A stretch of 64,000 bases of DNA from an uncultured Alphaproteobacteria bacterium. GTDB lineage: Bacteria; Pseudomonadota; Alphaproteobacteria; HIMB59; GCA-002718135. Below are positions 5,735 through 24,880 of the stretch, in pieces. A program made the translations under genes and the position numbers. The notes under the pieces were generated by a model that saw only the letters and a program-made list of their open reading frames with translations, ran no database searches and was not told where the DNA came from. The stretch spans positions 234,268-298,267 of the forward strand of contig CACMJS010000002.1 of assembly GCA_902614085.1 (NCBI GenBank), in the 5' to 3' direction. Position 1 is the stretch's first letter. Each line of letters begins with the position of its first letter.

Positions 5735-6154
5735 TTAAAAAGGCTGAAATACAACAAGTATAAGTATAAAAATCAATATTACTGCTGGCGCTTCATTTGT
5801 AATTCTAAAAAACTTAGTGGAGTATTTATTTTTATCATTTTTAAAATCATTAAGACATTTTAAACAAAAAAAATGATAGCCAGATAATAAAATTACAAAT
5901 AAAATTTTTAATAGCAACCAAGTATCAATACCCACATAATGTGTAAGTGTAAAACCTGATATCCATGTCACTATAAAAGCTGGAAACATAATAATTCTGT
6001 ACAATTTTCCTTCCATTAGTTTGAATGTTTCTGAGGTTTCTTTTGTAATTTCAGGATTAGCATGATTTACAAACAAACGTGGCAGATATAAAAGTCCAGC
6101 CATCCAAGCTATGATACTAAAAATATGAATAACTTTCAGCGTATTATATAACAT
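5735..6154 (-). CDS. hemJ: Protoporphyrinogen IX oxidase, HemJ type (membrane protein)
   Basis: 139 aa with 4 TM segments. Motifs LKVIHIFSIIAWMAGLLYLPRLFVNHA ... NEAPAVILIFILILVVFQPF match my recollection of the HemJ family. The heme-gene context supports the call. Confidence 0.8.
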   Translation of the reverse strand: MLYNTLKVIHIFSIIAWMAGLLYLPRLFVNHANPEITKETSETFKLMEGKLYRIIMFPAFIVTWISGFTLTHYVGIDTWLLLKILFVILLSGYHFFCLKCLNDFKNDKNKYSTKFFRITNEAPAVILIFILILVVFQPF

Positions 6155-6157
6155 TAT

Positions 6158-6967
6158 TTATTCCCATACCGCGTGAGGAGGCATTGACATTAATATAGCA
6201 TCAACATTCCCACCAGTCTCTAGACCAAATTTTGTACCTCTATCATATAATAAGTTAAATTCAGCATAGCGACTACGCTTAACTAATTGTATCTTTTTTT
6301 CCTCTTCATTCCACTCCTCATCCTTAAGTGCAATTAAAGTATTTTTGATAAACTGATGAAAATAAGTACCTACGCCTTGGACAAATTCAAAATCTTTTCC
6401 CCAATCACCAGTTTGAAGGTAATCAAAAAATATTCCTCCAATACCTCTTGGTTCGTTTCTATGTTTAAGAAAAAAATAGTCATCACACCATTTTTTAAAT
6501 TTAGGATAATATGATTTATCATACTTATTACACAAAACTTCTAAACCACGATGATATTTTTTCTCATCCTCAAATATTACACATGGTGTAATATCCATGC
6601 CTCCACCAAACCATTCCTGAGTGGTTTTAATAAATCTTGTATTAAAATGCATAGAAGGAATTTTAGGTGAAACAGGATGTAATACAACACTGATGCCGGT
6701 TGCATTATAATTTGGATCTTCTTTAGCACCCGGAATAGCATCTCTCATATTTTCGTTAAATGTCCCAGAGACGGTAGAAATATTTACTCCACCTTTTTCA
6801 ATAATATTACCCTTAATTTTACTCATTTTACCACCACCATCACCTTTGTGATCCCAGTTACTTATTTCAAATTGATTTTCATCAATGTTTTGAATAGTTT
6901 CAACTAAGTTATCTCGTAATTTTTCAAACCATTCTTTTGCAGTATTAAATTTGGGATCAGCAATCAT
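6158..6967 (-). CDS. hemF: Oxygen-dependent coproporphyrinogen III oxidase
   Basis: HemF motifs: ISVVLHPVSPKIPSMHFNTRF, WFGGGMDITP, RNEPRGIGGIFFDY. I preferred the ATG at 6965-6967, which overlaps the hemH stop (ATGA), over the TTG at 6976. Confidence 0.9.
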   Translation of the reverse strand: MIADPKFNTAKEWFEKLRDNLVETIQNIDENQFEISNWDHKGDGGGKMSKIKGNIIEKGGVNISTVSGTFNENMRDAIPGAKEDPNYNATGISVVLHPVSPKIPSMHFNTRFIKTTQEWFGGGMDITPCVIFEDEKKYHRGLEVLCNKYDKSYYPKFKKWCDDYFFLKHRNEPRGIGGIFFDYLQTGDWGKDFEFVQGVGTYFHQFIKNTLIALKDEEWNEEEKKIQLVKRSRYAEFNLLYDRGTKFGLETGGNVDAILMSMPPHAVWE

Positions 6968-7989
6968 AATGGCCAACCTTGAGTATGTTTTTTTATCAGA
7001 TTTACAAAAACGTCTATGTGATCATCGTGATCATTCAAGCAAGGTATATAATGATAATTTTCTCCACCTGACTCCATAAAATATTCTTTATTTTCTTCTT
7101 CAAGTTCTTCAAGTGTTTCAAGACAATCACTACTGAAACCAGGAGATATTATATGTATATTTTTAATCCCTTGTTTTGGTAATTCTTTTAATGTTTCACT
7201 TGTATATGGCTTTAACCATTCCTCTCTTCCAAATCTACTTTGGAAAGTAGTCATTATCTCATCATCGGATAATCCCATATGTTCTTTAACAAGTCTTGTG
7301 GTTTTAAGACAAAAGCAATGATACGGATCACCATTAGTCAAATACCGTTTTGGTATACCATGATAACTAAAAATAATTTTTTGTGGTTTTGAAGTTTTTT
7401 TCCAAAATGATTTTATTGAATTTGACAATGCTTCAATATAATTTTTTTCTTCAAAGTACTGATTGATAAAACGCATTTCAGGTATCCAACGCCATTTTTG
7501 CAATACATTTGTTACTTCATCAAATGTACTACCTGTTGTTGCAGCACAATATTGCGGATACATAGGTAGAACTAATAATCTTCTTACTTGTTTTTTTTGA
7601 AGTTTTAACAAAGCATCTGGAATAGATGGATTGCCATAGCGCATCCCAACTTCAAAAACTATATTTTCATTTTTTGAAGAAAAAGATGATTGGATTTTAT
7701 TTAGTTGTCTGTTTGCTATATCTAAAAGTGGAGAACCCTTATCAGTCCAAATTTGTTTGTATGCTTCTGCTGACTTTGATGGTCTTATTTGTAAAATTAC
7801 TAGCTTCAATATAATTTGCCATAAGATTTTAGGCAATTCGATTACTCTAGGATCTGATAAAAATTGATTAAGATAAACTTTTAGTTCTTTTTTATTTGGA
7901 GCATCTGGAGTGCCTAGGTTAGTAATTAAAACACCAATTTTTTCTTTACTACCGTGCTCATAATCTTTTTCACCTATATATTTAACCAT
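6964..7989 (-). CDS. hemH: Ferrochelatase
   Basis: GVLITNLGTPDAPN...YLNQFLSDPRVIELP, LPMYPQYCAATTGS and FSYHGIP are typical ferrochelatase motifs. Confidence 0.9.
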   Translation of the reverse strand: MVKYIGEKDYEHGSKEKIGVLITNLGTPDAPNKKELKVYLNQFLSDPRVIELPKILWQIILKLVILQIRPSKSAEAYKQIWTDKGSPLLDIANRQLNKIQSSFSSKNENIVFEVGMRYGNPSIPDALLKLQKKQVRRLLVLPMYPQYCAATTGSTFDEVTNVLQKWRWIPEMRFINQYFEEKNYIEALSNSIKSFWKKTSKPQKIIFSYHGIPKRYLTNGDPYHCFCLKTTRLVKEHMGLSDDEIMTTFQSRFGREEWLKPYTSETLKELPKQGIKNIHIISPGFSSDCLETLEELEEENKEYFMESGGENYHYIPCLNDHDDHIDVFVNLIKKHTQGWPL

Positions 7990-7994
7990 ATCTA

Positions 7995-8993
7995 TTAGCT
8001 AAATTCTTTTCTGATATTTTCTATAAATAAATGAACATTTTTTTCTGGAGTATTTTTGTTAATTCCATGTCCAAGGCCACAAATCCAACCGTTAAGATTT
8101 TCAATTGATTTCATTTTTTCAATAAAATCTTTTAAATCATTAAGAAATGTATCTGATTCACTCAACATTAATTGTTCATTGAAATTACCCTGAATAAATC
8201 CATGTTTTTGATTTTTAAACATAGATATTAGATCTATTGTGTGATCATAACCAAAACCAGCAAAGGGAAAACTGATGATAGAATTTAGATCTGTTAAACT
8301 TTTACCTCTTGAATAAAAGCCAACTTTATTTGGAAAAGAAATTGCAATCTCTTCCAAAAATTTGGAATAAATTTCATGAAAATTTATTTTATCTAAATCA
8401 TACAAGGAACTATCAAAAATCATGACAAGTTCAACACCTGCATCTAATTGTAATTGAATATTTTTCTTTAGAAGGGGTAAGAGAATTTTTGAAATAAATT
8501 CTAAATTCATTTTAGTGTCGATTAAATCAGAGTTATTATTTCCAAATGCATATTTTGATAATGTCCAAGGTCCGCCAACAAATCCAATTAAACTTTTATT
8601 ATTTGGCAATTTCTCTTTTGTTATTTTTATAGCTTCAAATTGAAATTGCATATACTCAATGCCGCGATCAATATTACTATAATCATTAATGTTTTCTGAA
8701 TTTATATAAGAATTAAATTTAGGTCCTGGGTCAAACTTTAATTCTAAACCAAGTCCTTCTAAGATGAATAAAATATCACTGAATAAAATTGCAATATCGT
8801 AATCAAACTCTTGTATTGGACCAAAAGCAACTTCTGCGGCTAGATCTGGAGTTTTACATAGTTCTTCAAAAGTATATTTTTCTTTGAGCTTGCGATAATG
8901 CGAATGGTACCTTCCAGCCTGTCTCATAAACCAAATGGGTGGTGTTTTTTGAATATTTCTTTTGAGAGCATTTTCGAATAAAATATTTGTCAT
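7995..8993 (-). CDS. hemE: Uroporphyrinogen decarboxylase
   Basis: PPIWFMRQAGRY signature. I chose the start MTNILFENAL (cat at 8991-8993), just after the hemC stop. Confidence 0.9.
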   Translation of the reverse strand: MTNILFENALKRNIQKTPPIWFMRQAGRYHSHYRKLKEKYTFEELCKTPDLAAEVAFGPIQEFDYDIAILFSDILFILEGLGLELKFDPGPKFNSYINSENINDYSNIDRGIEYMQFQFEAIKITKEKLPNNKSLIGFVGGPWTLSKYAFGNNNSDLIDTKMNLEFISKILLPLLKKNIQLQLDAGVELVMIFDSSLYDLDKINFHEIYSKFLEEIAISFPNKVGFYSRGKSLTDLNSIISFPFAGFGYDHTIDLISMFKNQKHGFIQGNFNEQLMLSESDTFLNDLKDFIEKMKSIENLNGWICGLGHGINKNTPEKNVHLFIENIRKEFS

Positions 8994-8995
8994 TT

Positions 8996-10504
8996 TTAAG
9001 CTTTTAGTAATTTTTTCTTCCAACTATCATAAGATAGCTCAACAAAAAGATTTTTATCATTACCTAATATTTTACTAATCTCATTGTATGTATTTCCTGG
9101 GCCACAAAAATGATATTTTTCTATAATTTTAGGATATTTATCAATACTCGCCTTAAAAGCTGAACTGCTCATCCAATAAAAGTACTTTTTCTTTTCTATA
9201 TCTATTTCAAAATCAATAGACTCCAATTGATACGTTTCAATTTTATTTTTTATCAAACTTTCAGGAGATTTAGAATGAGTTAACTTAACCCAAGAATTAT
9301 TTGTAAGTGAATTAATATCTTTATCAAAATCCTCACCCAAACCATCTGAAGTTCCATTCACCCAAATACCTCTTTCAGATAAATTTTTCCATGTTCTTAA
9401 ACCACTAGTCCAAATAACATTATTTGATTGGATTTTTGACTTATCTGGGATTGAGCTAATTCGTGAAACATAAATACATTTATTTTGTAAATTATTTATA
9501 TCATCGACATTTTCATTTAATTGTTTTCTGGAAAAAATTTTATAATTTTTTAAATTTTCAGGATAAATTTCATCAGTTGTATTACTAGAAAAACTTATAT
9601 CTTTTGGATCAATAAAATCCCAGCTCTCAAAATGATTACCATTTTCATCTTCACCCCTTTTAGATACAACTAATCCTAATTTATGTGAGATATAAGATAC
9701 TCCTATTTTTTGGTGACATCCTCCTCCATAATTTTTTAAAATATTTCTTTCTTGAATAACATTTGAATAATCTTTGGAAAAATTAATATCATTTAAAATT
9801 TCGTTAAGTTTATTATCTTTAATTCTTGTTTCAATCGCTAGAGCTCCTTGTCCAGGAGAACAAGGGTTTATAGACAATGGTAAAACAGACCATAGACATT
9901 CATTAATATATTTTTTTAGAGTTATTTTTAATTCATTAAATTCAGAATAATTATTCAAAAGTAATCTATCAATTGCTGCCTTAGCAACAATAAAACCATC
10001 ACTGTCAGGATCTTCCAAAAATTTTTTAAATCTAGTGGGTATGTTACCTCTTATATTTTCAAAGCATACTTCATCAAACTTTTGTGGAAGATAATTTGCA
10101 ATAAAATTTTCTAAATTATATTGTCTTCTTGGTGATGAGCAAAGAATAGTAATTTTCTTACTATCTAATGTTATGTTTTTTTTTAAGAATAATATATCTC
10201 GTTTATCAGCACGTTTTAATGTTGCAGCAATTTTAGTTTTCTCGCCAACTTCAATTGGAAGATCCTTCCAAGAATGGACAATTAAATCACATTTGTTATT
10301 TATTAATTCATCTCTTAAATCATTAGTAAAAACACCTTCTGTCGGCATTTCAGAAAGAGGTGTTTTTAGATCTTTATCTCCTGAAGTACTTCTAGTTAAA
10401 AATTCTATTTCTACAAAAGGATGTTTTGATTGCAAATAATCGGAAAATTCACGTGCTTGAATTATTGCCAAATCACTTTTTCTAGATAAAATTCTTATTT
10501 TCAT
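8996..10504 (-). CDS. hemC: Hydroxymethylbilane synthase (porphobilinogen deaminase) with a ~190-aa C-terminal extension resembling part of uroporphyrinogen-III synthase
   Basis: The N-terminal ~300 aa carry HemC motifs (IVHSWKDLP, SPGQGALAIETR, GGGCHQKIGV). Total length is 502 aa versus about 310 for a typical HemC. The tail (encoded at about 8999-9577) has HEM4-like strings (VIWTSGLRTWKNL, YFYWMSSSAFKA, FCGPGNTYNEI). Confidence 0.8.
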   Translation of the reverse strand: MKIRILSRKSDLAIIQAREFSDYLQSKHPFVEIEFLTRSTSGDKDLKTPLSEMPTEGVFTNDLRDELINNKCDLIVHSWKDLPIEVGEKTKIAATLKRADKRDILFLKKNITLDSKKITILCSSPRRQYNLENFIANYLPQKFDEVCFENIRGNIPTRFKKFLEDPDSDGFIVAKAAIDRLLLNNYSEFNELKITLKKYINECLWSVLPLSINPCSPGQGALAIETRIKDNKLNEILNDINFSKDYSNVIQERNILKNYGGGCHQKIGVSYISHKLGLVVSKRGEDENGNHFESWDFIDPKDISFSSNTTDEIYPENLKNYKIFSRKQLNENVDDINNLQNKCIYVSRISSIPDKSKIQSNNVIWTSGLRTWKNLSERGIWVNGTSDGLGEDFDKDINSLTNNSWVKLTHSKSPESLIKNKIETYQLESIDFEIDIEKKKYFYWMSSSAFKASIDKYPKIIEKYHFCGPGNTYNEISKILGNDKNLFVELSYDSWKKKLLKA

Positions 10505-10546
10505 TACTTATATTTCTATAAATAACACTATATTGTAAAATTGGTA

Positions 10547-11110
10547 ATGGTTGAATTTAAAGGTACAAAATCTTCGTGGGGCTTGGTTGCAAAACTTTTT
10601 CATTGGTCATTGGCACTTCTTCTTTTTTGGCAAGTTGCAACAGGGATTAGCCTTCATAATATGGAATTTTCTCCTCTTAAAATGGGTTTTATTATTACTC
10701 ATAAATTTTTTGGCACCTTAGTCTTTAGTTTAGTAGTGCTTAGATTAATGTGGAAATACATATTTAATACTCATCCTAAATATGAAAATATTCCTTTATT
10801 TCATAAATTAGTTTCGAATTTAGTCCATTTTGTTCTTTATGGTTTAGTTATTCTTATTCCTATTCAGGGTACCTTTATGACATGGCTTGGAGGAGAAGAT
10901 GTTCATCTCTTGGGATTAATTAAAATACCACCTTTAATCGAAGAGAATTTTTTTTTATACCCGCAAGCTCTAGCTATACACTACTACTCAGCACTTTTAT
11001 TAACAGCTCTTTTTTCACTTCATATTGCAGCGGCTTTGTATCATCGATTTATAATTAAAGATAAATATGGTGTCTGGAGGAGAATGTCTTTTAGTAGAAA
11101 TAAGGTGTGA
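10547..11110 (+). CDS. Cytochrome b561 family membrane protein (CybB-like)
   Basis: 4-TM protein with conserved His positions (FHWSLALLL, ITHKFFG, AIHYYSA, HIAAALYHRF). ATG at 10547 preferred over TTG at 10541. Confidence 0.7.
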   Translation: MVEFKGTKSSWGLVAKLFHWSLALLLFWQVATGISLHNMEFSPLKMGFIITHKFFGTLVFSLVVLRLMWKYIFNTHPKYENIPLFHKLVSNLVHFVLYGLVILIPIQGTFMTWLGGEDVHLLGLIKIPPLIEENFFLYPQALAIHYYSALLLTALFSLHIAAALYHRFIIKDKYGVWRRMSFSRNKV

Positions 11111-11165
11111 CAATTCATTCAATTAAACACTTACAATTAAAGATTGGGTAAGATATCTAACATTT

Positions 11166-12401
11166 ATGCAATATAAAAATTTCTTTAAATCTGAATTAAA
11201 AAATTTAAAAGATCAGGGTCTTTATAGGGACTTTAGAAACATAGACAGACCTATAAAAAGTTTTCCAAATGCAGATGAAAGTTTCAAAAATAAAGAAAGA
11301 GAAGTAGAGGTTTGGTGTTCTAATGACTATCTGAACATGAGTCAGCACCCAGAAGTCGTAAATGAAATTGTAAAAACACTACTTGAATATGGATCTGGTT
11401 CAGGTGGAACAAGAAATATTTCTGGTACATCAACCTATCATACTGAACTTGAAAAAAAACTGGCAAATGTTCATAATAAAGAGGCGGCATTAGTTTTTGC
11501 TTCTGCTTATACAGCAAACCAATCTACTTTATGGACTTTAGGAAAAAAAATAAAAGATATTGAGATATTTTCTGATGAATTAAATCACGCATCTTTAATA
11601 CAAGGTATTAAGAATAGTGGAGCTAAGTGTCATATATTTAAACACAATGACATTGATCATTTAGAACAGTTACTAAAAGAGTCAAATGTAGATAATCCTA
11701 AGTTAATCGTTTTTGAAAGTTTATACTCTATGGAAGGTATAAGATCGCCTATAGTTAAAATTGTAGAGTTAGCAAAAAAATATAACTGTATGACATATTT
11801 GGATGAAGTTCATTCAGTTGGACTTTACGGTGAAGAAGGTAAAGGTATTGCAGTAGAAATGGGAGTTGAAGATAAAATAGATATTATTAATGGAACTTTA
11901 GCAAAAGCATATGGTCAAATGGGAGGTTATATTGCTGCTAGCTCAGAAATAATTGACTACATTAGAAGTTTTGCTCCAGGTTTTATTTTTACAACTTCAA
12001 TCTGCCCATCAATTGCTGCAGGAGCAGCTAAAGCAATAGATATTGTTTCTCTAGCAGAGCAACTAAGAATAAGAATAAAAGAAAATGCAGCTTTAATAAG
12101 AGAAAATTTAGATTCCTTAGCAATCCCTTATTTGGATACAAATTCTCATATTGTAGCAGTATTAATTAATGATCCTTTTTTATGCAAAAAAGTGTCTAAA
12201 GATTTAATTGATGATCATGGTATTTATGCGCAGCCAATTTTTTACCCGACTGTACCAAAAGGTTTAGAAAGACTGAGAATAACTGTTACCCCAAAACATA
12301 GAAAAGAGCATATTGAAAAAATGATTAAGGCTCTTGATACAGTTTGGTCTAAAAATAATTTACCAAGAAAAAATAATAATAAAGTTACAGCAAATATTTA
12401 A
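11166..12401 (+). CDS. hemA: 5-aminolevulinate synthase (C4 pathway, alphaproteobacterial type)
   Basis: 411-aa PLP enzyme of the alpha-oxoamine synthase family. Motifs: [42 protein letters not shown]. Confidence 0.9.
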
Positions 12402-13474: not shown

Positions 13475-13978
13475 TTATTGGCAACTGCCTATAGAACCAA
13501 GAGCACATTTTTTACCATCTATCCATATAGCATTTGACAAATTTGCTTCATCAAAAATTGCACCTGAAATATTAGCACCAAGTAGATTTGCCTCATATAG
13601 ATTTGCACCTTTAAAAGTCGCTCCAAAGAGATTAGATCCCTCAAAGTTTACTTTTGCAAGGTTTGCATTATCAAAGTTAGCATTATTACAATTAGCTCCC
13701 TGTAAATTTGAAGCATATAAATTAGAATTACTGAAATTTGAGAAGATAAAATTACCAATAGATAAATTTGAATTATTTAGTTGAGATTTTTCAAAATTAG
13801 ATAAAGATAAATTAACTCCTGACATTTGAGAATTTGCCAAACCAGTACCAGAAAGATCGAGGTTTTCTACAAAATTACAATTAGTCCAATCAACATCATT
13901 TGCTGGTTGATCACTGCATGCAGCAAATACAGAATATGTGCTAATGAAACTTAAGACAAATATAATTAAAAATCTCAT
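13475..13978 (-). CDS. Secreted (possibly lipoprotein) pentapeptide-repeat protein
   Basis: Signal peptide MRFLIIFVLSFISTYSVFAA followed by Cys. Runs of A(N/D)Lxx pentapeptides follow (ANLYEANLLGANISGAIFDEANLSNA). It lies 41 nt downstream of the MotB-like gene on the same strand. Confidence 0.8.
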   Translation of the reverse strand: MRFLIIFVLSFISTYSVFAACSDQPANDVDWTNCNFVENLDLSGTGLANSQMSGVNLSLSNFEKSQLNNSNLSIGNFIFSNFSNSNLYASNLQGANCNNANFDNANLAKVNFEGSNLFGATFKGANLYEANLLGANISGAIFDEANLSNAIWIDGKKCALGSIGSCQ

Positions 13979-14019
13979 ATTGAATTTTTATGATCAGTTT
14001 ATGTTAAATTTAAGGCAAA

Positions 14020-15786
14020 TTAGCGTGAAGTGAGTTTTAATTCAATCCTTCTATTCTGTTGAAGATCACTCTCAGTTTCTCCATTACTGATAGGATAAAA
14101 CTCTCCAAATCCTGCAGATGCTAATCTATTTGGTGGAAAACCAAGATCAAGAAGAAGTTTTAAAACTGTATTAGCTCTAGCTGAAGATAATTCCCAGTTA
14201 GAAGGATATCTAATTGTTTGAATAGGTTTTTTGTCAGTGTGTCCTTCTACCATGATAATCCAGTCAATATCTGAAGGAATATCATTAGTAGTCTCTTTTA
14301 AAGTAAGGCCAATTTCACTTAACTTTTCTTTACCAGATAGTTGTAAATCTGCTGAAGCAGAATCAAATAATAGCTCTGATTCAAAAATAAATCTATCTCC
14401 TACAATTTTAATATCTTTTCTATCACCTAAAATAGATTGTAGTTTTCCAAAAAACTCAGATCTATATTTTTGAAGTTCAAATACTTTTGATGTAAGGGCT
14501 TTATTTAACTTTTCACCTAGCACCTCTATTTCTAAATCTTTAATCAAAGCCTGACTTTCACTAGCTTCTAGAGCACTATTAAGCAAAGCAATTTCTTTTT
14601 GCAGAGTGTCAATCTGATTAGATAGAATTTCTACCTGTTCTAATGTTTTTGAAGCTTGTATTTCCATATTTTTAATTTCTTCAAGCGATGTTTCTTTTTG
14701 TGTTTGATTTTCTTGCTCTAATAATGCAATTTGATTTTGAAGTAGCTCAAGCTTATCAAGTTGTTGTTTTTGTTTATCTTCAGACAAAGAAAGTACATTA
14801 TTAAGTTCAGATATTTTTCCTCGCAAATTAAAAATAGTGCTATCTTTCTGAATTAAATCTTTATTTAATCTTGCTAATTCTTCATTTTTAAACCTAATTG
14901 CATCAAGTTGTTCATTAAGTGATGCATCTTTTAAGCCAAGACTATCATTAATTTCTAAAAGATCATTCATTAGTTCTTGATATTGGGATATTTGACTTTG
15001 TAATTCTTCATCTCTTAAGGATAGTTCGATGTTTGTTTTTTCCAATTCATCATTTAAATTTAAGAGTTGTTCATTTTTATTTTTAATTGCAAGCAATTGC
15101 TCTTCAATTCCGCCTTCCTCTAAACCCAGACTTTCGTTAATGGCAATTAAATTTTCATTCTTCTCATTTAATTCTGCTATTGTCGATTTGAGAGATTTTT
15201 CACTTTCAAGTAGTTTAAAATTAGCATTATCTAATTCTTGATTAAGTATTTTTAGTTGATCAATTCTTGTTGCAAGTGCTTTATTAATTCGTTCTCCAAG
15301 TCCCTCGGTTTCAAGTAAAGTAATTTCTTGTCCTTCATAAGTTTCTAATGCATTTGCAACTATTCTCAGTTCTTTTAAAAGACTACTAATTTGCTCGGAT
15401 AAAGCTATTATATTTTGTTCCTGAACAAATATTTCTGATCGTTTTTTTGCAACATCAGTTTGTAATTGCTCACTTAATAATTGCTCACTTTGTAAATTTA
15501 ATTCTGTATCTTCAAGTTTTTTCTCAGTTTCATAAAGAGTTGAAAGAGCTTCTTCTTTATCTTTTGTTTCAATAACAAGTATTTTAGATAATTCATTTAT
15601 TTGTGTTCTTAAATCTTGAAGCGCCTTATCTCGACCAGATATAGCATCACTCAGATATATTTGCGAAACAGTAAAAACCATTAGCACAAATATGATTACT
15701 ATTAAAAGAGTAGCTAGAACATCGACAAAACCAGGCCAAATATTTGTTGTATCAGCAAGTCTATTTCTTAAAGACCTAGTAGACAT
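14020..15786 (-). CDS. MotB/OmpA-family protein: N-terminal TM with conserved Asp, ~400-aa coiled coil, C-terminal OmpA-like peptidoglycan-binding domain
   Basis: The TM segment IWPGFVDVLATLLIVIIFVL carries Asp22 (MotB/ExbD-like). Residues 45-440 are heptad-rich and rich in E, L, Q, K. The C-terminus reads MVEGHTDKKP...NWELSSARANTVLKLL...GFGEFYP...NRRIELKL (OmpA_C-like). Confidence 0.8.
   Translation of the reverse strand: MSTRSLRNRLADTTNIWPGFVDVLATLLIVIIFVLMVFTVSQIYLSDAISGRDKALQDLRTQINELSKILVIETKDKEEALSTLYETEKKLEDTELNLQSEQLLSEQLQTDVAKKRSEIFVQEQNIIALSEQISSLLKELRIVANALETYEGQEITLLETEGLGERINKALATRIDQLKILNQELDNANFKLLESEKSLKSTIAELNEKNENLIAINESLGLEEGGIEEQLLAIKNKNEQLLNLNDELEKTNIELSLRDEELQSQISQYQELMNDLLEINDSLGLKDASLNEQLDAIRFKNEELARLNKDLIQKDSTIFNLRGKISELNNVLSLSEDKQKQQLDKLELLQNQIALLEQENQTQKETSLEEIKNMEIQASKTLEQVEILSNQIDTLQKEIALLNSALEASESQALIKDLEIEVLGEKLNKALTSKVFELQKYRSEFFGKLQSILGDRKDIKIVGDRFIFESELLFDSASADLQLSGKEKLSEIGLTLKETTNDIPSDIDWIIMVEGHTDKKPIQTIRYPSNWELSSARANTVLKLLLDLGFPPNRLASAGFGEFYPISNGETESDLQQNRRIELKLTSR
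14854..15141 (-). repeat. Intragenic tandem duplication (~63-residue period) within the coiled coil of the MotB-like protein
   Basis: INESLGLEEGGIEEQLLAIKNKNEQLLNLNDEL (residues 216-248) versus INDSLGLKDASLNEQLDAIRFKNEELARLNKDL (residues 279-311). A second motif pair, LGERINKALATRI (about residue 163) and LGEKLNKALTSKV (about residue 423), brackets the coil. Confidence 0.7.
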
Positions 15787-15788
15787 TA

Positions 15789-16814
15789 TTATTTTTTAAT
15801 TTTCTTTAGTTCTTTTTCAATTTTCTGAAAATACTCTTTAACTTTTTTTGCTTCTAATATTCCATTTTTGCTTAAAGCTTCTGTAAGGTTCATTAGTGTA
15901 GATTGTGTGTTTAATTGTGAAGATAAGAAATTTGATAATTGCTTATCAAGATTTGAAGAGTTGGAATTGATTTTGTTAAGTATTTCATTAAACTTCTCTA
16001 AATTATTTGAAATTTTAGTTTGACTGTCAGATGATTTCTTAAAAGCATTTAGGAGGTTTTCTAAGTTGTCATAGATTTTTTGAATTGCTTCACCTGTAGG
16101 CTTATCTTCTACTTTAGAAAAATCTGGAGAAGAATTGCTATTAAGGATTTTTTCAAAGTATTGACTAAATTTATTTTGAGCTTGTCCAAGATTTAAATCA
16201 AGTAATCCTAATATTAAAGAGCCAGCTAAACCTAATAAAGAACTGCTAAATGCAATACTCATTCCTTCAAGTGGAGCGTTTAATCCATCTTTAAGAGAAT
16301 TAAAAAAACCTGCAACATTTGTGTCATCTATACCTAGGCCGCTGATAACATTGCCAACAGATCCAATGGTTTTTAGAAGTCCCCAGAAAGTTCCAAGGAG
16401 TCCTAAAAAAACTAGCAAGCCTACCAGGTAACGAGAAGTTTCTCTTATGCTTATCAAAGTCATATCAGAATTCTCTATCAATCTATTTATTGATGAACTT
16501 TTAAAAACAAATTTTCCGTCAAGATTTTTTAATTCGAGAGAAATATTTTTGTCTTGTCCTCTTAAATTAGAGAATGCTTCTATAGAATTTGTAATATTAA
16601 AGTTTGAGAAAGATATATATTTGTAATTTAAGTTAATGAGATGAAAAAAATTAAATACAATTCCAGTTAACAGGGCTAATAAAATTATAATGTTAATAAA
16701 AATATTTGATAAAAAAGCATTCTGTAAAACTGGGTATAATAAAACAACAATAACAAAAACAGCAACCAAGAATATTGATGCTCTAATTATGTAATTATTT
16801 AAGGATAGTGCCAT
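15789..16814 (-). CDS. MotA/TolQ/ExbB-family proton-channel protein with a ~130-aa Ser/Asn/Lys-rich C-terminal coiled-coil tail
   Basis: 4 predicted TM segments. Family motifs: LVFLGLLGTFWGLLKTIG and MSIAFSSSLLGLAGSLILGLLDL. Its stop lies 2 nt before the MotB-like start. Confidence 0.8.
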   Translation of the reverse strand: MALSLNNYIIRASIFLVAVFVIVVLLYPVLQNAFLSNIFINIIILLALLTGIVFNFFHLINLNYKYISFSNFNITNSIEAFSNLRGQDKNISLELKNLDGKFVFKSSSINRLIENSDMTLISIRETSRYLVGLLVFLGLLGTFWGLLKTIGSVGNVISGLGIDDTNVAGFFNSLKDGLNAPLEGMSIAFSSSLLGLAGSLILGLLDLNLGQAQNKFSQYFEKILNSNSSPDFSKVEDKPTGEAIQKIYDNLENLLNAFKKSSDSQTKISNNLEKFNEILNKINSNSSNLDKQLSNFLSSQLNTQSTLMNLTEALSKNGILEAKKVKEYFQKIEKELKKIKK

Positions 16815-18135: not shown

Positions 18136-18360
18136 TTAAGCAGCAATGCGACGATTTTTTTGAGCTTCTTTTTCTTTTTTAAGCTCTTTTTCGTCAATAT
18201 ACGCAACATCACAGTGACTCTGACAATAAGGCTTCCCAGCAACGGTATCAGCTTCACAAAAATGAAAATCTTTCTCTTGTGGATCTCCAATTGGCCATTG
18301 GCAACTTGAGAAACTGTGCATCACACTGTTTTGTTTAAAATAATTTTTTAATATAGACAT
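18136..18360 (-). CDS. Small protein consisting only of a GcrA-like C-terminal domain
   Basis: 74 aa from ATG at 18358-18360. CQWPIGDPQEKDFHFCEADTVAGKPYCQSHCDVAY matches my recollection of the Caulobacter GcrA C-terminus (CKWPIGDP...FTFCG...PYCVEHARVAY). No N-terminal HTH part is present. Confidence 0.65.
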   Translation of the reverse strand: MSILKNYFKQNSVMHSFSSCQWPIGDPQEKDFHFCEADTVAGKPYCQSHCDVAYIDEKELKKEKEAQKNRRIAA

Positions 18361-18514
18361 AATAATTTTATTAATTTCGAGGTAGTTTATATTTATGAAA
18401 AAACCAGTATTCAACATTAAATATAAAAAAGTTGTTAATTATCAATATGTTAGTATCTTAATCTTTTTGACCTACTATATGTTGATACATAATTTATAAG
18501 AAAAACGAATCGGT

Positions 18515-23419: not shown

Positions 23420-24880
23420 TTATAAATATTCCTTTCTTGTTATTTTAAAACTGTATGCATGCTCGCATGGTTTATTATCTGGTCTTGTTATATGGAGTCC
23501 ATCTCTGGTATGTTTCCATTCTACTTTATCAGTACTTCCTAATAATTCTACCCTTTCAATTTCATTATCAAAAAGTTTATATATACTTTCTATCGTAAAA
23601 TCTTTGCTAGGCCATCCTAATGCAGTTGCATACAAAAAATTATCTTTTGTAGTGAACCTAAAATCTTTAGCAGTATAAATTAGTTTTGCTCGATTATCTG
23701 AAAAAGGTCCTGCTTCATTCATTTTAGTTGGGCCTTCTCCATATTGATCCCATGTTTCTGTTTCAAATATTGCTTCTCCATTTACATCAAGCCAATTTCC
23801 AATACCTTCTAAAAGATTTTTATCTTCTTCTGGAATTGTTCCATCAGGTTTTGGCCCAATATTTAAGAGCATGTATCCATTTTTACTAACATTATCTATT
23901 AAGTAGTGAACTAAATCTGTCGTAGTTTTATATTTTGAATTCTTCATATAAGCCCAAGCACTTCCATCGTGGACTGTGGTATCAGTAATCCAATCATAGT
24001 GGGTTAATTCTGACTCTCTTCCTAGTTCAAGATCTAATAATCCAGAACCGGGGGGAAGATCATGCCATTTATAAGATACAACTACTTCATTACCCCACTC
24101 AGTTTCTTTGTTATAATAATATGAAAGAAAATCTTTTTTATACTTTTCATGAATAAATCTAATTCCAAAATCAAACCATACATAGTCTGGTTTATAATTA
24201 TCTACTACTTCTTTTAATCTATTTAACCATCTATCATGAAAAGCTTTACTAGGCTTGTCTTGATGTTCATTTTTTCTACCCCAATGATCAGGATATACAG
24301 CCTGATTTCCTATTAAATCTAAATTGTGAAGTTCACCATATAAACTTTCATATTCCTTTTTTGATGTATCAAAATCATTATTCCAGTGTGGGAAAAAAAA
24401 CCAGTTTTCAGCATGATGCATTGCTACCATATATTTCATCCCTTTATTTCTAATTGCTTTTTCAAGTTCTCCAACAATATCTCTTTTTGGCCCCATCTTA
24501 GATGCACACCATTCGGTATCAGAACAATTCCACATTGGAAAACCATCATGATGCTCTGCTACAGGTCCAGCAAATTTTGCTCCAGATCGATAATACAAAT
24601 CTGCCCACTCTTCTGCATTAAATTTTTCAGCAGTAAACATTGGTATAAAATCTTTATATCCAAATTTAGATGGATGACCATAATGTTTACAATGATAATC
24701 AAACTGAGGACTAGGTGGTCTATACATCCAATAAGGATACCACGTCACATTCGGTCCAGCAGCTGGAACAGAATAGATTCCCCAATGAGCATAAATACCA
24801 AACTTCGCTTTTTTAAACCAATTTGGTGTTTGATGTTGTTTTATTGATGACCAAGTTGGTTCAAAATAGTTTTGTTTCAT
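23420..24880 (-). CDS. Alpha-L-fucosidase, GH29, no signal peptide (cytoplasmic)
   Basis: N-terminus WFKKAKFGIYAHWGIYSVPA and the GH29-like strings HHDGFPMW and YVWFDF. The N-terminus is not hydrophobic. Confidence 0.85.
   Translation of the reverse strand: MKQNYFEPTWSSIKQHQTPNWFKKAKFGIYAHWGIYSVPAAGPNVTWYPYWMYRPPSPQFDYHCKHYGHPSKFGYKDFIPMFTAEKFNAEEWADLYYRSGAKFAGPVAEHHDGFPMWNCSDTEWCASKMGPKRDIVGELEKAIRNKGMKYMVAMHHAENWFFFPHWNNDFDTSKKEYESLYGELHNLDLIGNQAVYPDHWGRKNEHQDKPSKAFHDRWLNRLKEVVDNYKPDYVWFDFGIRFIHEKYKKDFLSYYYNKETEWGNEVVVSYKWHDLPPGSGLLDLELGRESELTHYDWITDTTVHDGSAWAYMKNSKYKTTTDLVHYLIDNVSKNGYMLLNIGPKPDGTIPEEDKNLLEGIGNWLDVNGEAIFETETWDQYGEGPTKMNEAGPFSDNRAKLIYTAKDFRFTTKDNFLYATALGWPSKDFTIESIYKLFDNEIERVELLGSTDKVEWKHTRDGLHITRPDNKPCEHAYSFKITRKEYL

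What the first reader, a model, noticed from the sequence alone, without database searches (positions are those of the whole stretch)
13475..16814. Orphan stator-like module: MotA/ExbB-like channel, MotB/OmpA-like protein with a ~400-aa coiled coil, and a secreted pentapeptide-repeat protein
Three co-directional genes are tightly spaced (2-nt and 41-nt gaps).

- A 4-TM MotA/TolQ/ExbB-type channel (LGLLGTFWGLL, MSIAFSSSLLGLAG) has a ~130-aa Ser/Asn/Lys-rich cytoplasmic coiled-coil tail.
- Its partner carries a MotB-like TM with the conserved Asp (FVD, Asp22) and a C-terminal OmpA-type peptidoglycan-binding domain. About 400 residues of heptad-rich coiled coil separate the two, and this coil contains an internal ~63-residue duplication.
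- A signal-peptide-bearing pentapeptide-repeat protein follows.

No flagellar, TonB/ExbD, TolA/TolB/Pal or gliding genes are nearby. At about 0.15 nm rise per residue, a straight 400-residue helix would be far longer than a typical periplasm. The geometry therefore differs from a canonical stator or Tol/Exb motor. The architecture is inverted relative to Zorya, where the long tail sits on the MotA-like subunit. This looks like an ion-driven envelope machine of unknown output in an apparently streamlined, probably non-flagellated genome.
Basis: partly seen in the sequence, partly recalled or inferred. Interest (0 to 1): 0.75.

Follow-up and report, generated by a model that had tools for sequence, protein, structure and literature searches.

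The report
Orphan ZorAB-like ion motor pair
A marine SAR11-type bacterium without flagella carries a conserved gene pair for a small ion-driven membrane motor anchored to the cell wall by an unusually long protein stalk; the same pair occurs across related bacteria and its job is still unknown.

Summary
Three co-directional minus-strand genes encode:
- A: a 4-TM MotA/ExbB/ZorA-superfamily protein (341 aa) with a heptad-periodic tail.
- B: a MotB-like protein (588 aa) with a TM helix carrying invariant Asp22, about 410 proline-free heptad residues, and a MotB-type peptidoglycan-binding domain.
- C: a secreted pentapeptide-repeat protein (167 aa).

A-B is neither TolQR/ExbBD nor a flagellar stator. 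It is also not SAR11-specific.
- The pair belongs to a large family, mainly alphaproteobacterial. B follows A in 73-75 of 80 genomes.
- Many relatives sit in a housekeeping context (thiE-efp-suhB-[U]-A-B-rpmE).
- In half of the loci a third gene, U, lies just upstream. It encodes a secreted Pro/Ala-rich OmpA-like protein and is absent from this window.
- B passes NCBIfam PRK09039.
- A is closest to Zorya ZorA by profile and by fold, but no Zorya effector genes are adjacent.
- Both subunits carry coiled coils, so the layout is not "inverted Zorya".
- The SAR11 stalk is the longest seen and varies between strains in 28-residue steps.
- The pentapeptide gene is adjacent only in the four Pelagibacterales-like loci and resembles Caulobacter YjbI.

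Komagataeibacter "MotA/MotB" belong to this family. They are dispensable and polar, and overexpression causes cell chaining. My best guess is a PMF-driven envelope or cell-separation machine. Function is unproven.

The parts
15789..16814 (-). Gene A: 341-aa ZorA/MotA/ExbB-superfamily membrane protein, the putative pentameric ion-channel ring subunit
   Evidence: ORF. All 48 aligned family members, including this protein, hit PADLOC ZorA1 and ZorA3 profiles (window protein 2.7e-12). The AF2 model has pLDDT 86. All top 50 Foldseek PDB hits are A subunits of 5:2 motors, with ZorA 8vvn_D first.
16365..16436 (-). A TM3 (residues 127-150) carrying the invariant GLLGTFWGL motif (Thr142)
   Evidence: G138, L139, G141, T142, F143, G145 and L146 are invariant in 48 homologs. 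Hydropathy supports a TM segment.
16194..16265 (-). A TM4 (residues 184-207) carrying GMxxAFSSSLxGL (Ser190, Ser192)
   Evidence: G184, M185, F189, S192, G195 and L196 are invariant in 48 homologs. S190 is nearly invariant there and invariant in the 17-sequence TM-only alignment.
16635..16793 (-). A TM1 and TM2 (residues 8-30 and 37-60). TM1 is an extra N-terminal helix compared with ExbB and ZorA
   Evidence: Hydropathy. The TM-only profile aligns A residues 31-155 to ExbB residues 24-162, which leaves TM1 unmatched. ZorA has three TM helices (PMC11946911).
16437..16634 (-). A cytoplasmic loop (residues 61-126) with short helices and a beta-hairpin (residues 96-103)
   Evidence: AF2 secondary structure. 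The ZorA membrane-proximal cytoplasmic domain likewise has helices H1-H3 plus a beta-hairpin.
15792..16193 (-). A C-terminal tail (residues 208-341), helical and heptad-periodic, predicted cytoplasmic
   Evidence: AF2 helices at 241-316 and 323-340. Heptad power z about 9. The tail is shorter than the family median (154 against 192 residues measured from the AFSSS motif).
14020..15786 (-). Gene B: 588-aa MotB-like subunit of the PRK09039 family, the putative dimeric axle
   Evidence: NCBIfam NF006543 scores 361 bits against a cut-off of 305. A B homolog lies directly downstream of A in 73-75 of 80 loci, with a median gap of 3 nt.
15667..15738 (-). B TM helix (residues 17-40) with WPGFVD. Asp22 is encoded at 15721-15723
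   Evidence: W17, G19, V21 and D22 are invariant in 41 homologs. Hydropathy supports a TM segment.
14422..15654 (-). B periplasmic coiled-coil region (residues 45-455)
   Evidence: No proline in 411 residues. Heptad z=16 with a nearly constant register. AF2 secondary structure shows helices 18-151, 163-220, 227-283, 290-331 and 336-453 with Gly-rich breaks (low-confidence model). Residues about 100-360 are mostly a SAR11-specific insertion.
14854..15279 (-). Internal duplication in B (residues 170-248 against 233-311, offset 63)
   Evidence: 32 of 79 residues identical, BLOSUM62 score 148.
14974..15057 (-). The 28-residue unit LNDELEKTNxELSLRDEELQ..., present once here and two or three times in near-identical strains
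   Evidence: The alignment of 588-, 616- and 644-aa variants shows the added copies.
14023..14412 (-). B C-terminal OmpA/MotB-type peptidoglycan-binding domain (residues 459-588)
   Evidence: Pfam PF00691 (3e-15). PDB sequence hits to MotS (4e-16), MotB and PomB. D518, N530, R537, R579 and R580 are invariant.
13475..13978 (-). Gene C: 167-aa secreted (or lipidated) pentapeptide-repeat protein. It is a lineage-specific neighbour and probably not part of the motor
   Evidence: PF00805 (1.8e-21). Signal sequence and cysteines at 21/34 and 158/166. Found downstream of B only in L001-L004.

Best explanation
**What it is.** Genes A and B encode the SAR11 representative of a widespread, chromosomally inherited family of ion-driven 5:2-type membrane motors, found mainly in Alphaproteobacteria. 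The closest characterised relatives are the ZorA-ZorB core of the Zorya system.

**Proposed assembly (inferred).**
- Five A subunits, each with four TM helices, form a ring around the TM helices of a B dimer.
- Protons (or Na+) pass via B Asp22 and the conserved Thr142 and Ser190/192 of A. This flow drives rotation of the A ring relative to B.
- The B dimer continues from the membrane as a long parallel coiled coil. That coil ends in a MotB-type domain that grips peptidoglycan, so B is the fixed part.
- The A ring carries five cytoplasmic helical tails, a short version of the ZorA tail. These would be the moving or signalling output.

**Geometry.** The stalk would measure about 60 nm here and at least 26 nm in every relative. 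It is too long to stand upright between inner membrane and wall. It must therefore lie obliquely or in-plane, or fold at its Gly-rich breaks.

**Most likely role (inferred).** A housekeeping envelope function related to cell separation and envelope tethering, analogous to Tol-Pal. Immunity or motility is less likely.

**Gene C.** The downstream pentapeptide-repeat gene is an independent YjbI-like envelope protein that is merely adjacent in Pelagibacterales.

**Shown versus inferred.**
- Shown: gene structure, family membership, conservation, synteny, fold class, heptad periodicity, and length polymorphism.
- Inferred: 5:2 stoichiometry, rotation, ion type, stalk geometry, and physiological role.
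For: **Fold and family of A**
- All 48 aligned members, the window protein included, hit PADLOC ZorA1 and ZorA3 profiles (best 4.6e-16). 38 of 48 hit PF01618 at 0.01 or better.
- The AF2 model has pLDDT 86. All top 50 Foldseek PDB hits are ZorA, ExbB, TolQ, PomA or MotA chains, with ZorA first and probability 1.0 for the leading hits.
- The cytoplasmic beta-hairpin and the tail parallel ZorA as described in PMC11946911.

**B subunit**
- B exceeds the NCBIfam PRK09039.1-2 cut-off.
- Asp22 and the Asp/Asn/Arg residues of the peptidoglycan-binding domain are invariant.
- PDB sequence hits are to MotS, MotB and PomB peptidoglycan-binding domains.

**Pairing**
- B lies directly downstream of A in 73-75 of 80 species-level loci, with a median gap of 3 nt.

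**Housekeeping character**
- The conserved neighbourhood is thiE-efp-suhB-[U]-A-B-(ABC transporter)-rpmE.
- The pair is retained in streamlined SAR11 and in Holosporales.
- Thousands of near-identical SAR11 copies exist.
- No ZorC-G-like genes are adjacent.

**Coiled coils**
- Heptad periodicity is z=16 for the B stalk and z about 9 for the A tail.
- The B linker spans 179-473 residues across the family.

**Physiology**
- Komagataeibacter hansenii "MotA/MotB" belong to this family.
  - The primer-encoded termini are MTRPTTY, MARRSRR and ...EFRLTDR*, which match family termini.
  - The reported sizes (348 and 321 aa), the 4 TM and 1 TM + OmpA layouts, and the non-flagellated host also fit.
- Disruption of these genes is viable.
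- Overexpression gives elongated, chained cells with septa. GFP fusions are polar or bipolar. These phenotypes resemble Tol-Pal phenotypes.
Against: - No complex was modelled or observed, so 5:2 stoichiometry and rotation are extrapolated from relatives.
- Sequence similarity of A to any solved A subunit is marginal (ExbB E 0.035, ZorA E 7.8 with a TM-only profile). Foldseek E-values are only about 1e-3 to 1e-2.
- The window protein itself scores below the PF01618 gathering threshold (15.3 against 22.9 bits).
- The B model is of low confidence (pLDDT 57), so the stalk geometry is unknown.
- The Komagataeibacter data come from overexpression and GFP fusions in one genus. The authors interpreted them as motility effects.
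- Strain-level length polymorphism of the stalk would also fit a protein under phage-driven diversifying selection.
- SAR11 lacks, at this locus, the U gene found in half of the relatives. SAR11 A also lacks the conserved C-terminal ELRxEIRLLxRTIA motif. The SAR11 machine may therefore work differently.
Confidence: 0.6

Rival explanations
1. The pair is a minimal, chromosomally fixed Zorya-like anti-phage sensor. B senses envelope perturbation during phage entry. A rotates and signals through its tail to an effector encoded elsewhere in the genome.
For: - The best profile and fold matches of A are to ZorA.
- B matches ZorB3 (1.8e-21).
- A has a ZorA-like tail and beta-hairpin.
- The stalk length varies between near-identical SAR11 strains in 28-residue steps, as expected under phage pressure.
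Against: - No ZorC, D, E, F or G or other effector genes are adjacent.
- Synteny with efp, suhB and rpmE is conserved, and the distribution across an entire class looks vertical. Defence systems are typically patchy and sit in islands.
- NCBIfam ZorA scores are far below the cut-offs (15 against 100-500 bits).
- The A tail of about 100-190 residues is far shorter than the 500-residue tail of E. coli ZorA (residues 230-729; PMC11946911).
- ZorB has no linker, whereas B has at least 179 linker residues.
Confidence: 0.1
2. B is mainly a passive structural tether or periplasmic spacer between inner membrane and peptidoglycan. It would substitute for the missing Lpp-type links of Alphaproteobacteria. 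A would serve only as a membrane anchor or assembly factor, with no rotation.
For: - The long, proline-free coiled coil with a constant heptad register ends in a peptidoglycan-binding domain.
- Length variation in exact 4-heptad steps suits a ruler.
- The upstream U protein is another peptidoglycan binder.
Against: - The residues that define the ion pathway of 5:2 motors are invariant across distant homologs: B Asp22, A Thr142, Ser190/192, and the Gly-rich TM3 and TM4 motifs. That is unexpected for a passive anchor.
- A and B show tight, translationally coupled pairing.
- A stalk of 26-70 nm exceeds any inner-membrane-to-wall spacing.
Confidence: 0.12
3. The three genes form one module. The secreted pentapeptide-repeat protein would be the periplasmic or outer-membrane output or partner of the motor.
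For: - The genes are co-directional with a 41-nt gap, and no terminator-like site was predicted.
- The arrangement is conserved in a Pelagibacterales relative whose A is only 62% identical (L004).
- YjbI-type proteins act at the envelope (PMC12864828).
Against: - The pentapeptide gene is absent downstream of B in the other 76 loci.
- In L001-L004 all flanking genes are syntenic as well, so adjacency carries little information.
- Caulobacter YjbI is described without any link to a MotA-like gene (0 occurrences of "MotA" in the paper).
- Relatives instead carry U upstream.
Confidence: 0.08
4. The pair is a non-flagellar motility or polymer-extrusion motor, comparable to AglRQS or GldLM. It would drive surface translocation or organise exopolysaccharide or cellulose export.
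For: Komagataeibacter overexpressors spread about 3-fold further on soft agar and make looser cellulose. Disruptants make denser cellulose.
Against: - SAR11 is planktonic, and by general knowledge it is non-motile and lacks cellulose synthesis.
- The family occurs in very different lifestyles, including endosymbiotic Holosporales.
- No adhesin, track or secretion genes are syntenic.
- The spreading phenotype can follow from cell chaining.
Confidence: 0.05

Closest known systems
Zorya ZorA-ZorB core (5:2 proton-driven, peptidoglycan-anchored motor; PDB 8QYD, 8VVN)
   Same: - Best profile match: all 48 family members hit ZorA1 and ZorA3.
- Best fold match.
- The cytoplasmic domain has a beta-hairpin, and a C-terminal helical tail sits on the A subunit.
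- The B subunit has the conserved TM Asp and an OmpA-like peptidoglycan-binding domain, with the TM helix running straight on into a periplasmic helix.
   Different: - A has an extra N-terminal TM helix (4 against 3).
- The tail is about 100-190 residues, against 500 in E. coli ZorA.
- B has a coiled coil of 179-473 residues, whereas the ZorB peptidoglycan-binding domain is fused without a linker.
- No ZorC-G effector genes are adjacent.
- Synteny is housekeeping rather than a defence island.
- Scores are far below the NCBIfam ZorA cut-offs.
Flagellar stator MotA-MotB / PomA-PomB
   Same: - A has a 4-TM, N-in/C-in topology.
- B has a single TM helix with Asp and a MotB-type peptidoglycan-binding domain (best PDB sequence hits are MotS, MotB and PomB).
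- The genes are adjacent and translationally coupled.
- Public annotation often calls them MotA and MotB.
   Different: - There is no flagellar context; SAR11 and Komagataeibacter lack flagella.
- TIGR03818 MotA scores 13.8 bits against a cut-off of 303.8.
- All MotB, MotS and MotD models score far below their cut-offs.
- The cytoplasmic loop is only about 65 residues and does not match the torque-generating interface.
- The linker is a long coiled coil rather than a plug plus flexible linker.
Tol-Pal (TolQ-TolR-TolA-TolB-Pal)
   Same: - It uses a PMF-driven 5:2 motor of the same superfamily (TolQ appears among the fold hits).
- It links the inner membrane to the wall and outer membrane through a long helical periplasmic element (TolA domain II) and an OmpA-like peptidoglycan binder (Pal).
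- Tol-Pal is widely reported to act at division sites.
- Overexpression of tolQ/tolR gives elongated cells, as cited in the Komagataeibacter paper. This parallels the phenotypes and polar localisation reported for Komagataeibacter MotA/MotB.
   Different: - Here the Asp-bearing TM helix, the long helix and the peptidoglycan-binding domain are all in one polypeptide.
- No TolA, TolB or Pal genes are adjacent.
- TolR and ExbD lack an OmpA-like domain.
- A has a cytoplasmic tail that TolQ lacks.
NCBIfam PRK09039 'peptidoglycan-binding protein' (NF006542-NF006546)
   Same: B exceeds the curated cut-off of NF006543 (361 against 305 bits). Its N-terminal TM region and C-terminal 290 residues align to the model. 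The Minwuia homolog scores 420 bits.
   Different: The profile is 350 positions long. SAR11 B carries about 240 extra coiled-coil residues (largely residues 100-360). The family name says nothing about function.
Komagataeibacter hansenii 'MotA/MotB' (Jacek et al. 2018-2019)
   Same: - Same family, judged by the primer-encoded N and C termini, the sizes, the topology and the non-flagellated host.
- This is the only experimental handle found: the genes are dispensable, the proteins localise to poles, and overexpression gives chained, elongated cells.
   Different: - B is only 321 aa there against 588 here.
- The identification was not verified with full sequences.
- The authors interpret the genes as motility genes.
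YjbI / PerA secreted pentapeptide-repeat proteins (Caulobacter CCNA_01968). This comparison applies to gene C only
   Same: An N-terminal secretion signal, a pentapeptide beta-helix, and one cysteine pair at each end (Cys21/34 and Cys158/166; PMC12864828).
   Different: - C ends one residue after the second cysteine pair and so lacks the charged C-terminal tail required for YjbI function.
- C has an extra Cys97.
- The VFAAC sequence could be a lipobox.
- Orthology was not tested.

Membership tests
MotA/ExbB/TolQ/ZorA superfamily (A subunits of 5:2 ion-driven motors) | Sequence match to PF01618 (MotA_ExbB) at the gathering threshold | tested here: not met
   The window protein scores 15.3 bits against a gathering threshold of 22.9, over residues 132-155 only. 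38 of 48 family members match at E 0.01 or better, the best at 5.2e-6. One homolog carries a precomputed PF01618 hit (P0466).
MotA/ExbB/TolQ/ZorA superfamily (A subunits of 5:2 ion-driven motors) | The fold of the TM core and cytoplasmic domain | tested here: met
   The AF2 model has pLDDT 86. All top 50 Foldseek PDB hits are ZorA, ExbB, TolQ, PomA or MotA chains, with probability 1.0 for the leading hits and target-normalised TM-score up to 0.64.
MotA/ExbB/TolQ/ZorA superfamily (A subunits of 5:2 ion-driven motors) | A5B2 assembly with the B-subunit Asp facing polar residues in the last two TM helices of A | not testable with these tools
   No multimer prediction was available. The conserved residues are present (B Asp22; A Thr142, Ser190, Ser192), but their spatial relation is inferred.
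Zorya anti-phage system | ZorA and ZorB at curated family level | tested here: not met
   NCBIfam ZorA_4 scores 15.4 bits against a cut-off of 500, and ZorA_2 scores 13.4 against 100. PADLOC ZorA and ZorB profiles match only the core regions (2.7e-12 and 1.8e-21).
Zorya anti-phage system | Adjacent effector genes (ZorC/ZorD, ZorE, or ZorF/ZorG) | tested here: not met
   The neighbours are a CFA synthase, a pentapeptide protein and an EamA transporter. PADLOC returns no hit for C. Related loci are flanked by efp, suhB, U, an ABC transporter and rpmE.
Zorya anti-phage system | A long ZorA tail (500 residues, 230-729, in E. coli ZorA; long tails reported as conserved across Zorya types) | tested here: not met
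   The A tail is 134 residues here. The family median is 192 residues measured from the AFSSS motif. Tail description from PMC11946911.
Flagellar stator MotAB/PomAB | Equivalog-level match to MotA and MotB models | tested here: not met
   TIGR03818 MotA1 scores 13.8 bits against a cut-off of 303.8. The best MotB-type models (MotD 95 against 283; MotS 93 against 264) match only the peptidoglycan-binding domain.
Flagellar stator MotAB/PomAB | A flagellar gene set in the genome | tested here: inconclusive
   None was found among the ~55 ORFs scanned across the 64-kb window, but the whole genome could not be read. General knowledge holds that SAR11 lacks flagellar genes. Komagataeibacter lacks flagella according to PMC6570709.
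TolQR / ExbBD | A B subunit of the TolR/ExbD type (no OmpA-like domain) and a TolA or TonB partner | tested here: not met
   B has an OmpA/MotB-type domain. There is no TolA, TonB, TolB or Pal gene in the window, and no A or B paralog there. Whether the genome has a separate Tol-Pal set could not be tested.
NCBIfam PRK09039 peptidoglycan-binding protein (NF006543) | Whole-protein score above the curated cut-off | tested here: met
   361 bits against a cut-off of 305, in two stretches. The best stretch aligns residues 297-588 to model positions 49-350.
OmpA-like peptidoglycan-binding domain (PF00691) | Pfam match above the gathering threshold, with the conserved Asp and Arg of the binding site | tested here: met
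   56.7 bits against a threshold of 27.2. D518, N530, R537, R579 and R580 are invariant in 41 homologs. Actual peptidoglycan binding is not testable here.
Pentapeptide-repeat proteins / YjbI-type secreted PRP (gene C) | Pentapeptide repeats, a secretion signal, and a cysteine pair at each end of the beta-helix | tested here: met
   PF00805 scores 75.7 bits. There is a hydrophobic N-terminus, and cysteines at 21/34 and 158/166. The defining features are taken from PMC12864828.
Pentapeptide-repeat proteins / YjbI-type secreted PRP (gene C) | A charged C-terminal tail that inserts in the outer membrane | tested here: not met
   The protein ends ...KKCALGSIGSCQ, one residue after the second cysteine pair.

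The most novel reading that the evidence does not exclude
The A-B pair, with U in most relatives, would be a previously unrecognised housekeeping class of 5:2 rotary motor and a chromosomal sister, or ancestor, of the Zorya core. It would be conserved across Alphaproteobacteria and retained even in the minimal genome of SAR11, widely regarded as the ocean's most abundant bacterium. Its output would be new for this motor superfamily. One possibility is a PMF-powered, wall-anchored torsional or in-plane periplasmic coiled-coil device that senses or sets envelope geometry and reports to the cytoplasm through a rotating pentameric tail. Stalk length would be tuned between strains in 4-heptad steps.
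Probability: 0.3. Interest if true: 0.8.

Novelty: new variant of a known kind. Interest (0 to 1): 0.55.

Why it matters
- **A fresh test case for 5:2 motors.** These motors (MotAB, ExbBD, TolQR, GldLM, ZorAB) are a small set of machines that turn ion flow into mechanical work at the bacterial envelope. Each newly understood member has revealed a new output. This family is large and evidently under strong purifying selection. It survives extreme genome streamlining, yet no mechanism has been assigned to it.
- **A link to the origin of Zorya.** Its ZorA-like features in a non-defence, vertically inherited context bear on where Zorya came from.
- **A probe of envelope architecture.** The over-long, length-polymorphic periplasmic coiled coil poses a clear structural question: how is a stalk of 26-70 nm accommodated? 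The answer could say something about envelope architecture in Alphaproteobacteria, which by general knowledge lack Lpp.
- **Annotation.** The pair is widely mislabelled as flagellar MotA/MotB, or in SAR11 as NusB or FlaC. That mislabelling can create false inferences of motility in metagenomes.

Tried and rejected
1. **Rgs growth-pole proteins of Sinorhizobium.** I recalled RgsB/RgsC as a possible MotA/OmpA pair. The paper contains no occurrence of MotA, OmpA or ExbB, and RgsC is an M15 peptidase. Rejected.
2. **Literature searches for an assigned function.** I searched for "PRK09039", for MotAB-like or ZorA-like systems in Alphaproteobacteria, and in recent surveys of MotAB and Tol/Ton evolution. 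Nothing on this family turned up apart from the Komagataeibacter work.
3. **Sequence search of A against the PDB.**
   - The full-length protein gave no meaningful match (best E 0.1; mostly matches to its helical tail).
   - The full-length profile gave only coiled-coil noise from the tail.
   - A TM-only profile gave marginal ExbB (0.035) and ZorA (7.8) hits.
   - The relationship to solved motors therefore rests on PADLOC profiles and on fold.
4. **Structure prediction of B.**
   - The run with SAR11-only sequences gave pLDDT 57. I used it only for secondary structure, not for geometry.
5. **DNA-level tandem repeats in gene B.** None of significance were found. The duplication is old and visible only at protein level.
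6. **Co-variation of A tail length with B stalk length.** The trend is weak, negative and non-significant (Spearman -0.29, p=0.06, n=43).
7. **Promoter and terminator scan.** Promoter-like sites are no more frequent than in shuffled sequence, and no terminator was predicted. This is uninformative about co-transcription.
8. **Supplement search for Komagataeibacter sequences.** No sequences were found. Only primers were available.

Full report
**1. The observation**

- The window is about 30% GC. Its nearest public relatives are Pelagibacteraceae (SAR11) single-cell genomes and MAGs.
  - A, 16814..15789, 341 aa.
  - B, 15786..14020, 588 aa.
  - C, 13978..13475, 167 aa.
  - The gaps are 2 nt (A-B) and 41 nt (B-C).
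- A has four hydrophobic segments (8-30, 37-60, 127-150, 184-207) and a 134-residue K/N/S-rich tail.
- B has one TM segment containing WPGFVD (Asp22). Residues 45-455 contain no proline. Its C-terminal domain matches Pfam OmpA (3e-15) and MotS, MotB and PomB peptidoglycan-binding domains in the PDB (4e-16 and weaker).
- Heptad periodicity is far beyond chance: z=16 for B 45-455 and z about 9 for the A tail, with 0 of 2000 shuffles reaching either value. The register is almost constant along B.
- The internal duplication is real: residues 170-248 match 233-311, with 32 of 79 identical. The ten best self-match offsets (score 51 or more) other than 259 and 260 are multiples of seven.
- A weaker echo of the segment just before the peptidoglycan-binding domain (418-460) occurs at 158-200.
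- C has a signal sequence and pentapeptide repeats (1.8e-21).
- Among the roughly 55 ORFs scanned across the 64-kb window, none is a flagellar, Tol-Pal, Ton or gliding gene. The window holds no A or B paralog.

**2. What A is**

- The window protein falls below the Pfam MotA_ExbB threshold (15.3 against 22.9 bits). It has no meaningful PDB match by sequence (best E 0.1).
- PADLOC ZorA profiles match its TM3-TM4 core at 1e-11 to 1e-12.
- A search of 1.84 billion representative proteins found 2082 related clusters, 172 of them at E 1e-30 or better. Typical length is 350-400 aa.
- In a 48-sequence alignment the motifs GLLGTFWGL (TM3) and PLxGMxxAFSSSLxGL (TM4) are essentially invariant.
- All 48 members hit ZorA1 and ZorA3 profiles (best 4.6e-16). 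38 of 48 hit PF01618, more weakly (best 5.2e-6).
- An AlphaFold2 model (pLDDT 86) shows the four TM helices, a small cytoplasmic domain with a beta-hairpin (residues 96-103), and a long C-terminal helix.
- All 50 best Foldseek matches in the PDB are A subunits of 5:2 motors. ZorA comes first, then ExbB, further ZorA entries, TolQ, and PomA/MotA lower down.
- The E-values are modest (2.5e-3 and weaker). A TM-only sequence profile reaches only ExbB (0.035) and ZorA (7.8).
- A therefore belongs to a distinct family within the superfamily, nearest to ZorA.
- According to the Zorya structure paper, ZorA has three TM helices, a cytoplasmic domain with three helices and a beta-hairpin, and a long tail. 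ZorB has the essential Asp26 and a peptidoglycan-binding domain fused without a linker (PMC11946911).
- A shares the hairpin and a short tail. It has one extra N-terminal TM helix.

**3. What B is**

- B exceeds the curated cut-off of NCBIfam NF006543 (PRK09039.1-2, "peptidoglycan-binding protein"; 361 against 305 bits). Its N-terminus and last 290 residues align to a 350-position model.
- Across 41-73 homologs, four parts are conserved:
  - the TM helix (W17, G19, V21 and D22 invariant);
  - the following LSGRDxAL segment;
  - the helix before the domain (IAxLGxRLNxALAxKVxELxRYRSEFFGRL);
  - the MotB-type domain (D518, N530, R537, R579, R580).
- Residues about 100-360 of the SAR11 protein are largely lineage-specific.
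- The distance from the TM Asp to the YRSEFF motif is 179-473 residues across the family, with a median of 259. The Pelagibacterales proteins are the longest.
- At roughly 0.15 nm per residue, even the shortest stalk would be about 26 nm and this one about 60 nm.
  - It is a property of the whole family, not of SAR11 alone.
- Near-identical SAR11 strains carry B proteins of 588, 616 or 644 aa. The difference is one, two or three copies of a 28-residue (four-heptad) unit, LNDELEKTNxELSLRDEELQxQNEKLLx. The window carries the one-copy form.
- The monomer model of B is poor (pLDDT 57). I used it only for secondary structure: five helices separated by Gly-rich breaks at about 152-162, 221-226, 284-289 and 332-335.

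**4. Genomic context elsewhere**

The best 80 loci are mostly Alphaproteobacteria: Rhodospirillales, Azospirillum, Acetobacteraceae, Kordiimonas, Afipia and other Hyphomicrobiales, Sphingomonadales and Holosporales. A few are beta-, gamma- or deltaproteobacterial, or bins with other labels.
- A B homolog lies immediately downstream of A in 73-75 of 80 loci, with a median gap of 3 nt.
- The recurrent neighbourhood is thiE-like, efp, inositol monophosphatase (suhB-like), then A-B, then an oppositely oriented ABC transporter and rpmE. This is a housekeeping setting, not a defence island.
- In 40 of 80 loci a third gene, which I call U, sits directly upstream of A on the same strand. It encodes a signal peptide, a variable Pro/Ala-rich low-complexity region, and a C-terminal OmpA-like domain.
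- U is absent from the SAR11 window. There a cyclopropane-fatty-acid-synthase-type gene precedes A.
- The pentapeptide gene follows B only in the four Pelagibacterales-like loci, L001-L004. Every flanking gene is syntenic there too, so adjacency carries little information.

**5. What is known experimentally**

- Searches for PRK09039, for MotAB- or ZorA-like systems in Alphaproteobacteria, and in recent evolutionary surveys of MotAB and Tol/Ton found no treatment of this family.
- The exception is work on Komagataeibacter hansenii, a non-flagellated acetic acid bacterium. Its only "motility" genes are an adjacent motA (348 aa, 4 TM) and motB (321 aa, 1 TM plus OmpA-like domain) (PMC6570709).
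- The published cloning primers encode:
  - MotA starting MTRPTTY, identical to the start of a family member in my alignment (MTRPTTYLIRMLVFLG...);
  - MotB starting MARRSRR and ending ...EFRLTDR*.
  - The MotB termini match the family consensus MxxxRRR ... RRIELKLTxR.
- I therefore take these genes to be family members, although full sequences were not compared.
- Reported findings:
  - Overexpression gives longer cells growing in chains with visible septa.
  - Overexpressors spread about three-fold further on soft agar and make looser cellulose.
  - GFP fusions are polar in short cells and bipolar in long cells.
  - motA, motB and motAB disruptants are viable and make denser cellulose (PMC7347698).
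[quoted passage not shown] IMG labels some SAR11 copies of A "NusB" or "archaellum FlaC". None of these names reflects a tested function.

**6. Gene C**

- C has a secretion signal, a pentapeptide beta-helix, and cysteine pairs at both ends (21/34 and 158/166) plus Cys97.
- This is the architecture described for YjbI/PerA of Caulobacter. That protein is associated with the outer membrane and silences the ChvGI and UzcSR envelope-stress pathways (PMC12864828).
- C lacks the charged C-terminal tail listed as a required feature of YjbI.
- Its VFAAC sequence could be a lipobox.
- That paper makes no mention of MotA at all (0 occurrences).
- I treat C as an independent envelope protein.

**7. Mechanism**

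- Shown:
  - an A-B pair with the conserved ion-pathway residues of 5:2 motors;
  - a MotB-type wall anchor;
  - coiled coils on both subunits;
  - strong conservation and housekeeping synteny.
- Inferred from solved relatives:
  - A5B2 stoichiometry;
  - ion flow through B Asp22 and A Thr142/Ser190/Ser192 driving rotation of the A ring around a wall-anchored B dimer;
  - the five A tails forming the cytoplasmic output.
- The stalk cannot be perpendicular to the envelope. It must run obliquely or in-plane, or fold at its breaks.
- For the physiological role I commit, with modest confidence, to envelope maintenance and cell separation, analogous to Tol-Pal. The grounds are:
  - the chaining and polar localisation seen in Komagataeibacter;
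  - the association with a second peptidoglycan binder, U;
  - retention in minimal genomes.
- My confidence is about 0.85 that this is a superfamily-type motor pair of the described family. It is about 0.35 for the envelope and division role.
- Rivals:
  - a Zorya-like phage sensor with a remote effector (0.10). The length polymorphism would fit this;
  - a passive tether or ruler (0.12);
  - a motility or polymer-extrusion motor (0.05).

**8. Novelty and score**

- The kind of machine (5:2 motors with a peptidoglycan-binding B subunit) is known. The family is represented in databases.
- New here:
  - recognition that the family is ZorAB-like but housekeeping;
  - a family-wide over-long periplasmic coiled coil;
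  - a frequent third component, U;
  - in SAR11, an expanded stalk whose length varies between strains.
- I rate this a new variant of a known kind, with interest 0.55. It is a sound lead for specialists in these motors and in SAR11 cell biology. Many uncharacterised MotAB-like pairs are already known to exist: the mBio 2025 survey places 272 of its 379 proteins in the non-flagellar "generic ion transporter" group, which includes proteins of unknown function.

Noticed in passing
window 14974-15057 (B residues 244-271); proteins P0121-P0133 and others: A 28-residue, four-heptad unit of the B coiled coil is present one, two or three times in otherwise 97-99% identical SAR11 proteins (588, 616 or 644 aa). 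This is an in-register length polymorphism of the stalk within the population.
   Followed up: partly
L081 6936-7967 (Minwuia) and the ORF directly upstream of A in 40 of 80 loci, e.g. L018 5287-6300 and L038 6898-7908: A third conserved gene, U, lies upstream of A in many Alphaproteobacteria. It encodes a signal peptide, a Pro/Ala-rich low-complexity linker and a C-terminal OmpA-like domain. It is absent from the SAR11 window.
   Followed up: partly
alignment A1, C-terminal columns: Most A homologs end in a conserved ELRxEIRLLxRTIA motif. The SAR11 protein, whose tail is about 40 residues shorter, lacks it. The motif could be a partner-binding or membrane-binding site.
   Followed up: no
window about 21641-57400: A long run of sugar catabolism and transport genes, which looks unusual for a streamlined SAR11-type genome. 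It includes alpha-L-fucosidase (23420-24880), KDPG aldolase, two PfkB kinases, UxuA, a mannitol-dehydrogenase-like gene, aldose 1-epimerase, six GFO/IDH/MocA oxidoreductases and several ABC transporter components.
   Followed up: no
window 5735-12401: A heme biosynthesis cluster: UPF0093 (HemJ-like), coproporphyrinogen oxidase, ferrochelatase, uroporphyrinogen decarboxylase, a 502-aa porphobilinogen deaminase, cytochrome b561 and a class I/II aminotransferase that looks like ALA synthase. The C-terminal half of the deaminase has no Pfam match and may be a HemD fusion.
   Followed up: no
window 18136-18417 (-): A 93-aa ORF matches only the C-terminal part of the GcrA cell-cycle regulator domain (profile positions 107-152 of 155; E 6.8e-13). 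It could be a truncated or minimal GcrA.
   Followed up: no
window 38215-38985 (+), 38978-40192 (-), 47937-49319 (+): Three sizeable ORFs (256, 404 and 460 aa) inside the sugar-utilisation region have no Pfam match at E 1e-8 or better.
   Followed up: no
window 13916-13978 (C residues 1-21): The signal sequence of the pentapeptide protein ends VFA-AC. This could be a lipoprotein lipobox with Cys21 as the lipidated residue, rather than a signal peptidase I site. If so, the N-terminal "cysteine pair" reading would change.
   Followed up: no
cluster of window protein A: IMG annotations of SAR11 copies of A are spurious ("transcription termination factor NusB", "archaellum component FlaC"), apparently driven by the low-complexity helical tail. 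Elsewhere the family is widely named flagellar MotA/MotB, also in non-flagellated hosts such as SAR11 (JGI: "chemotaxis protein MotB") and Komagataeibacter.
   Followed up: partly
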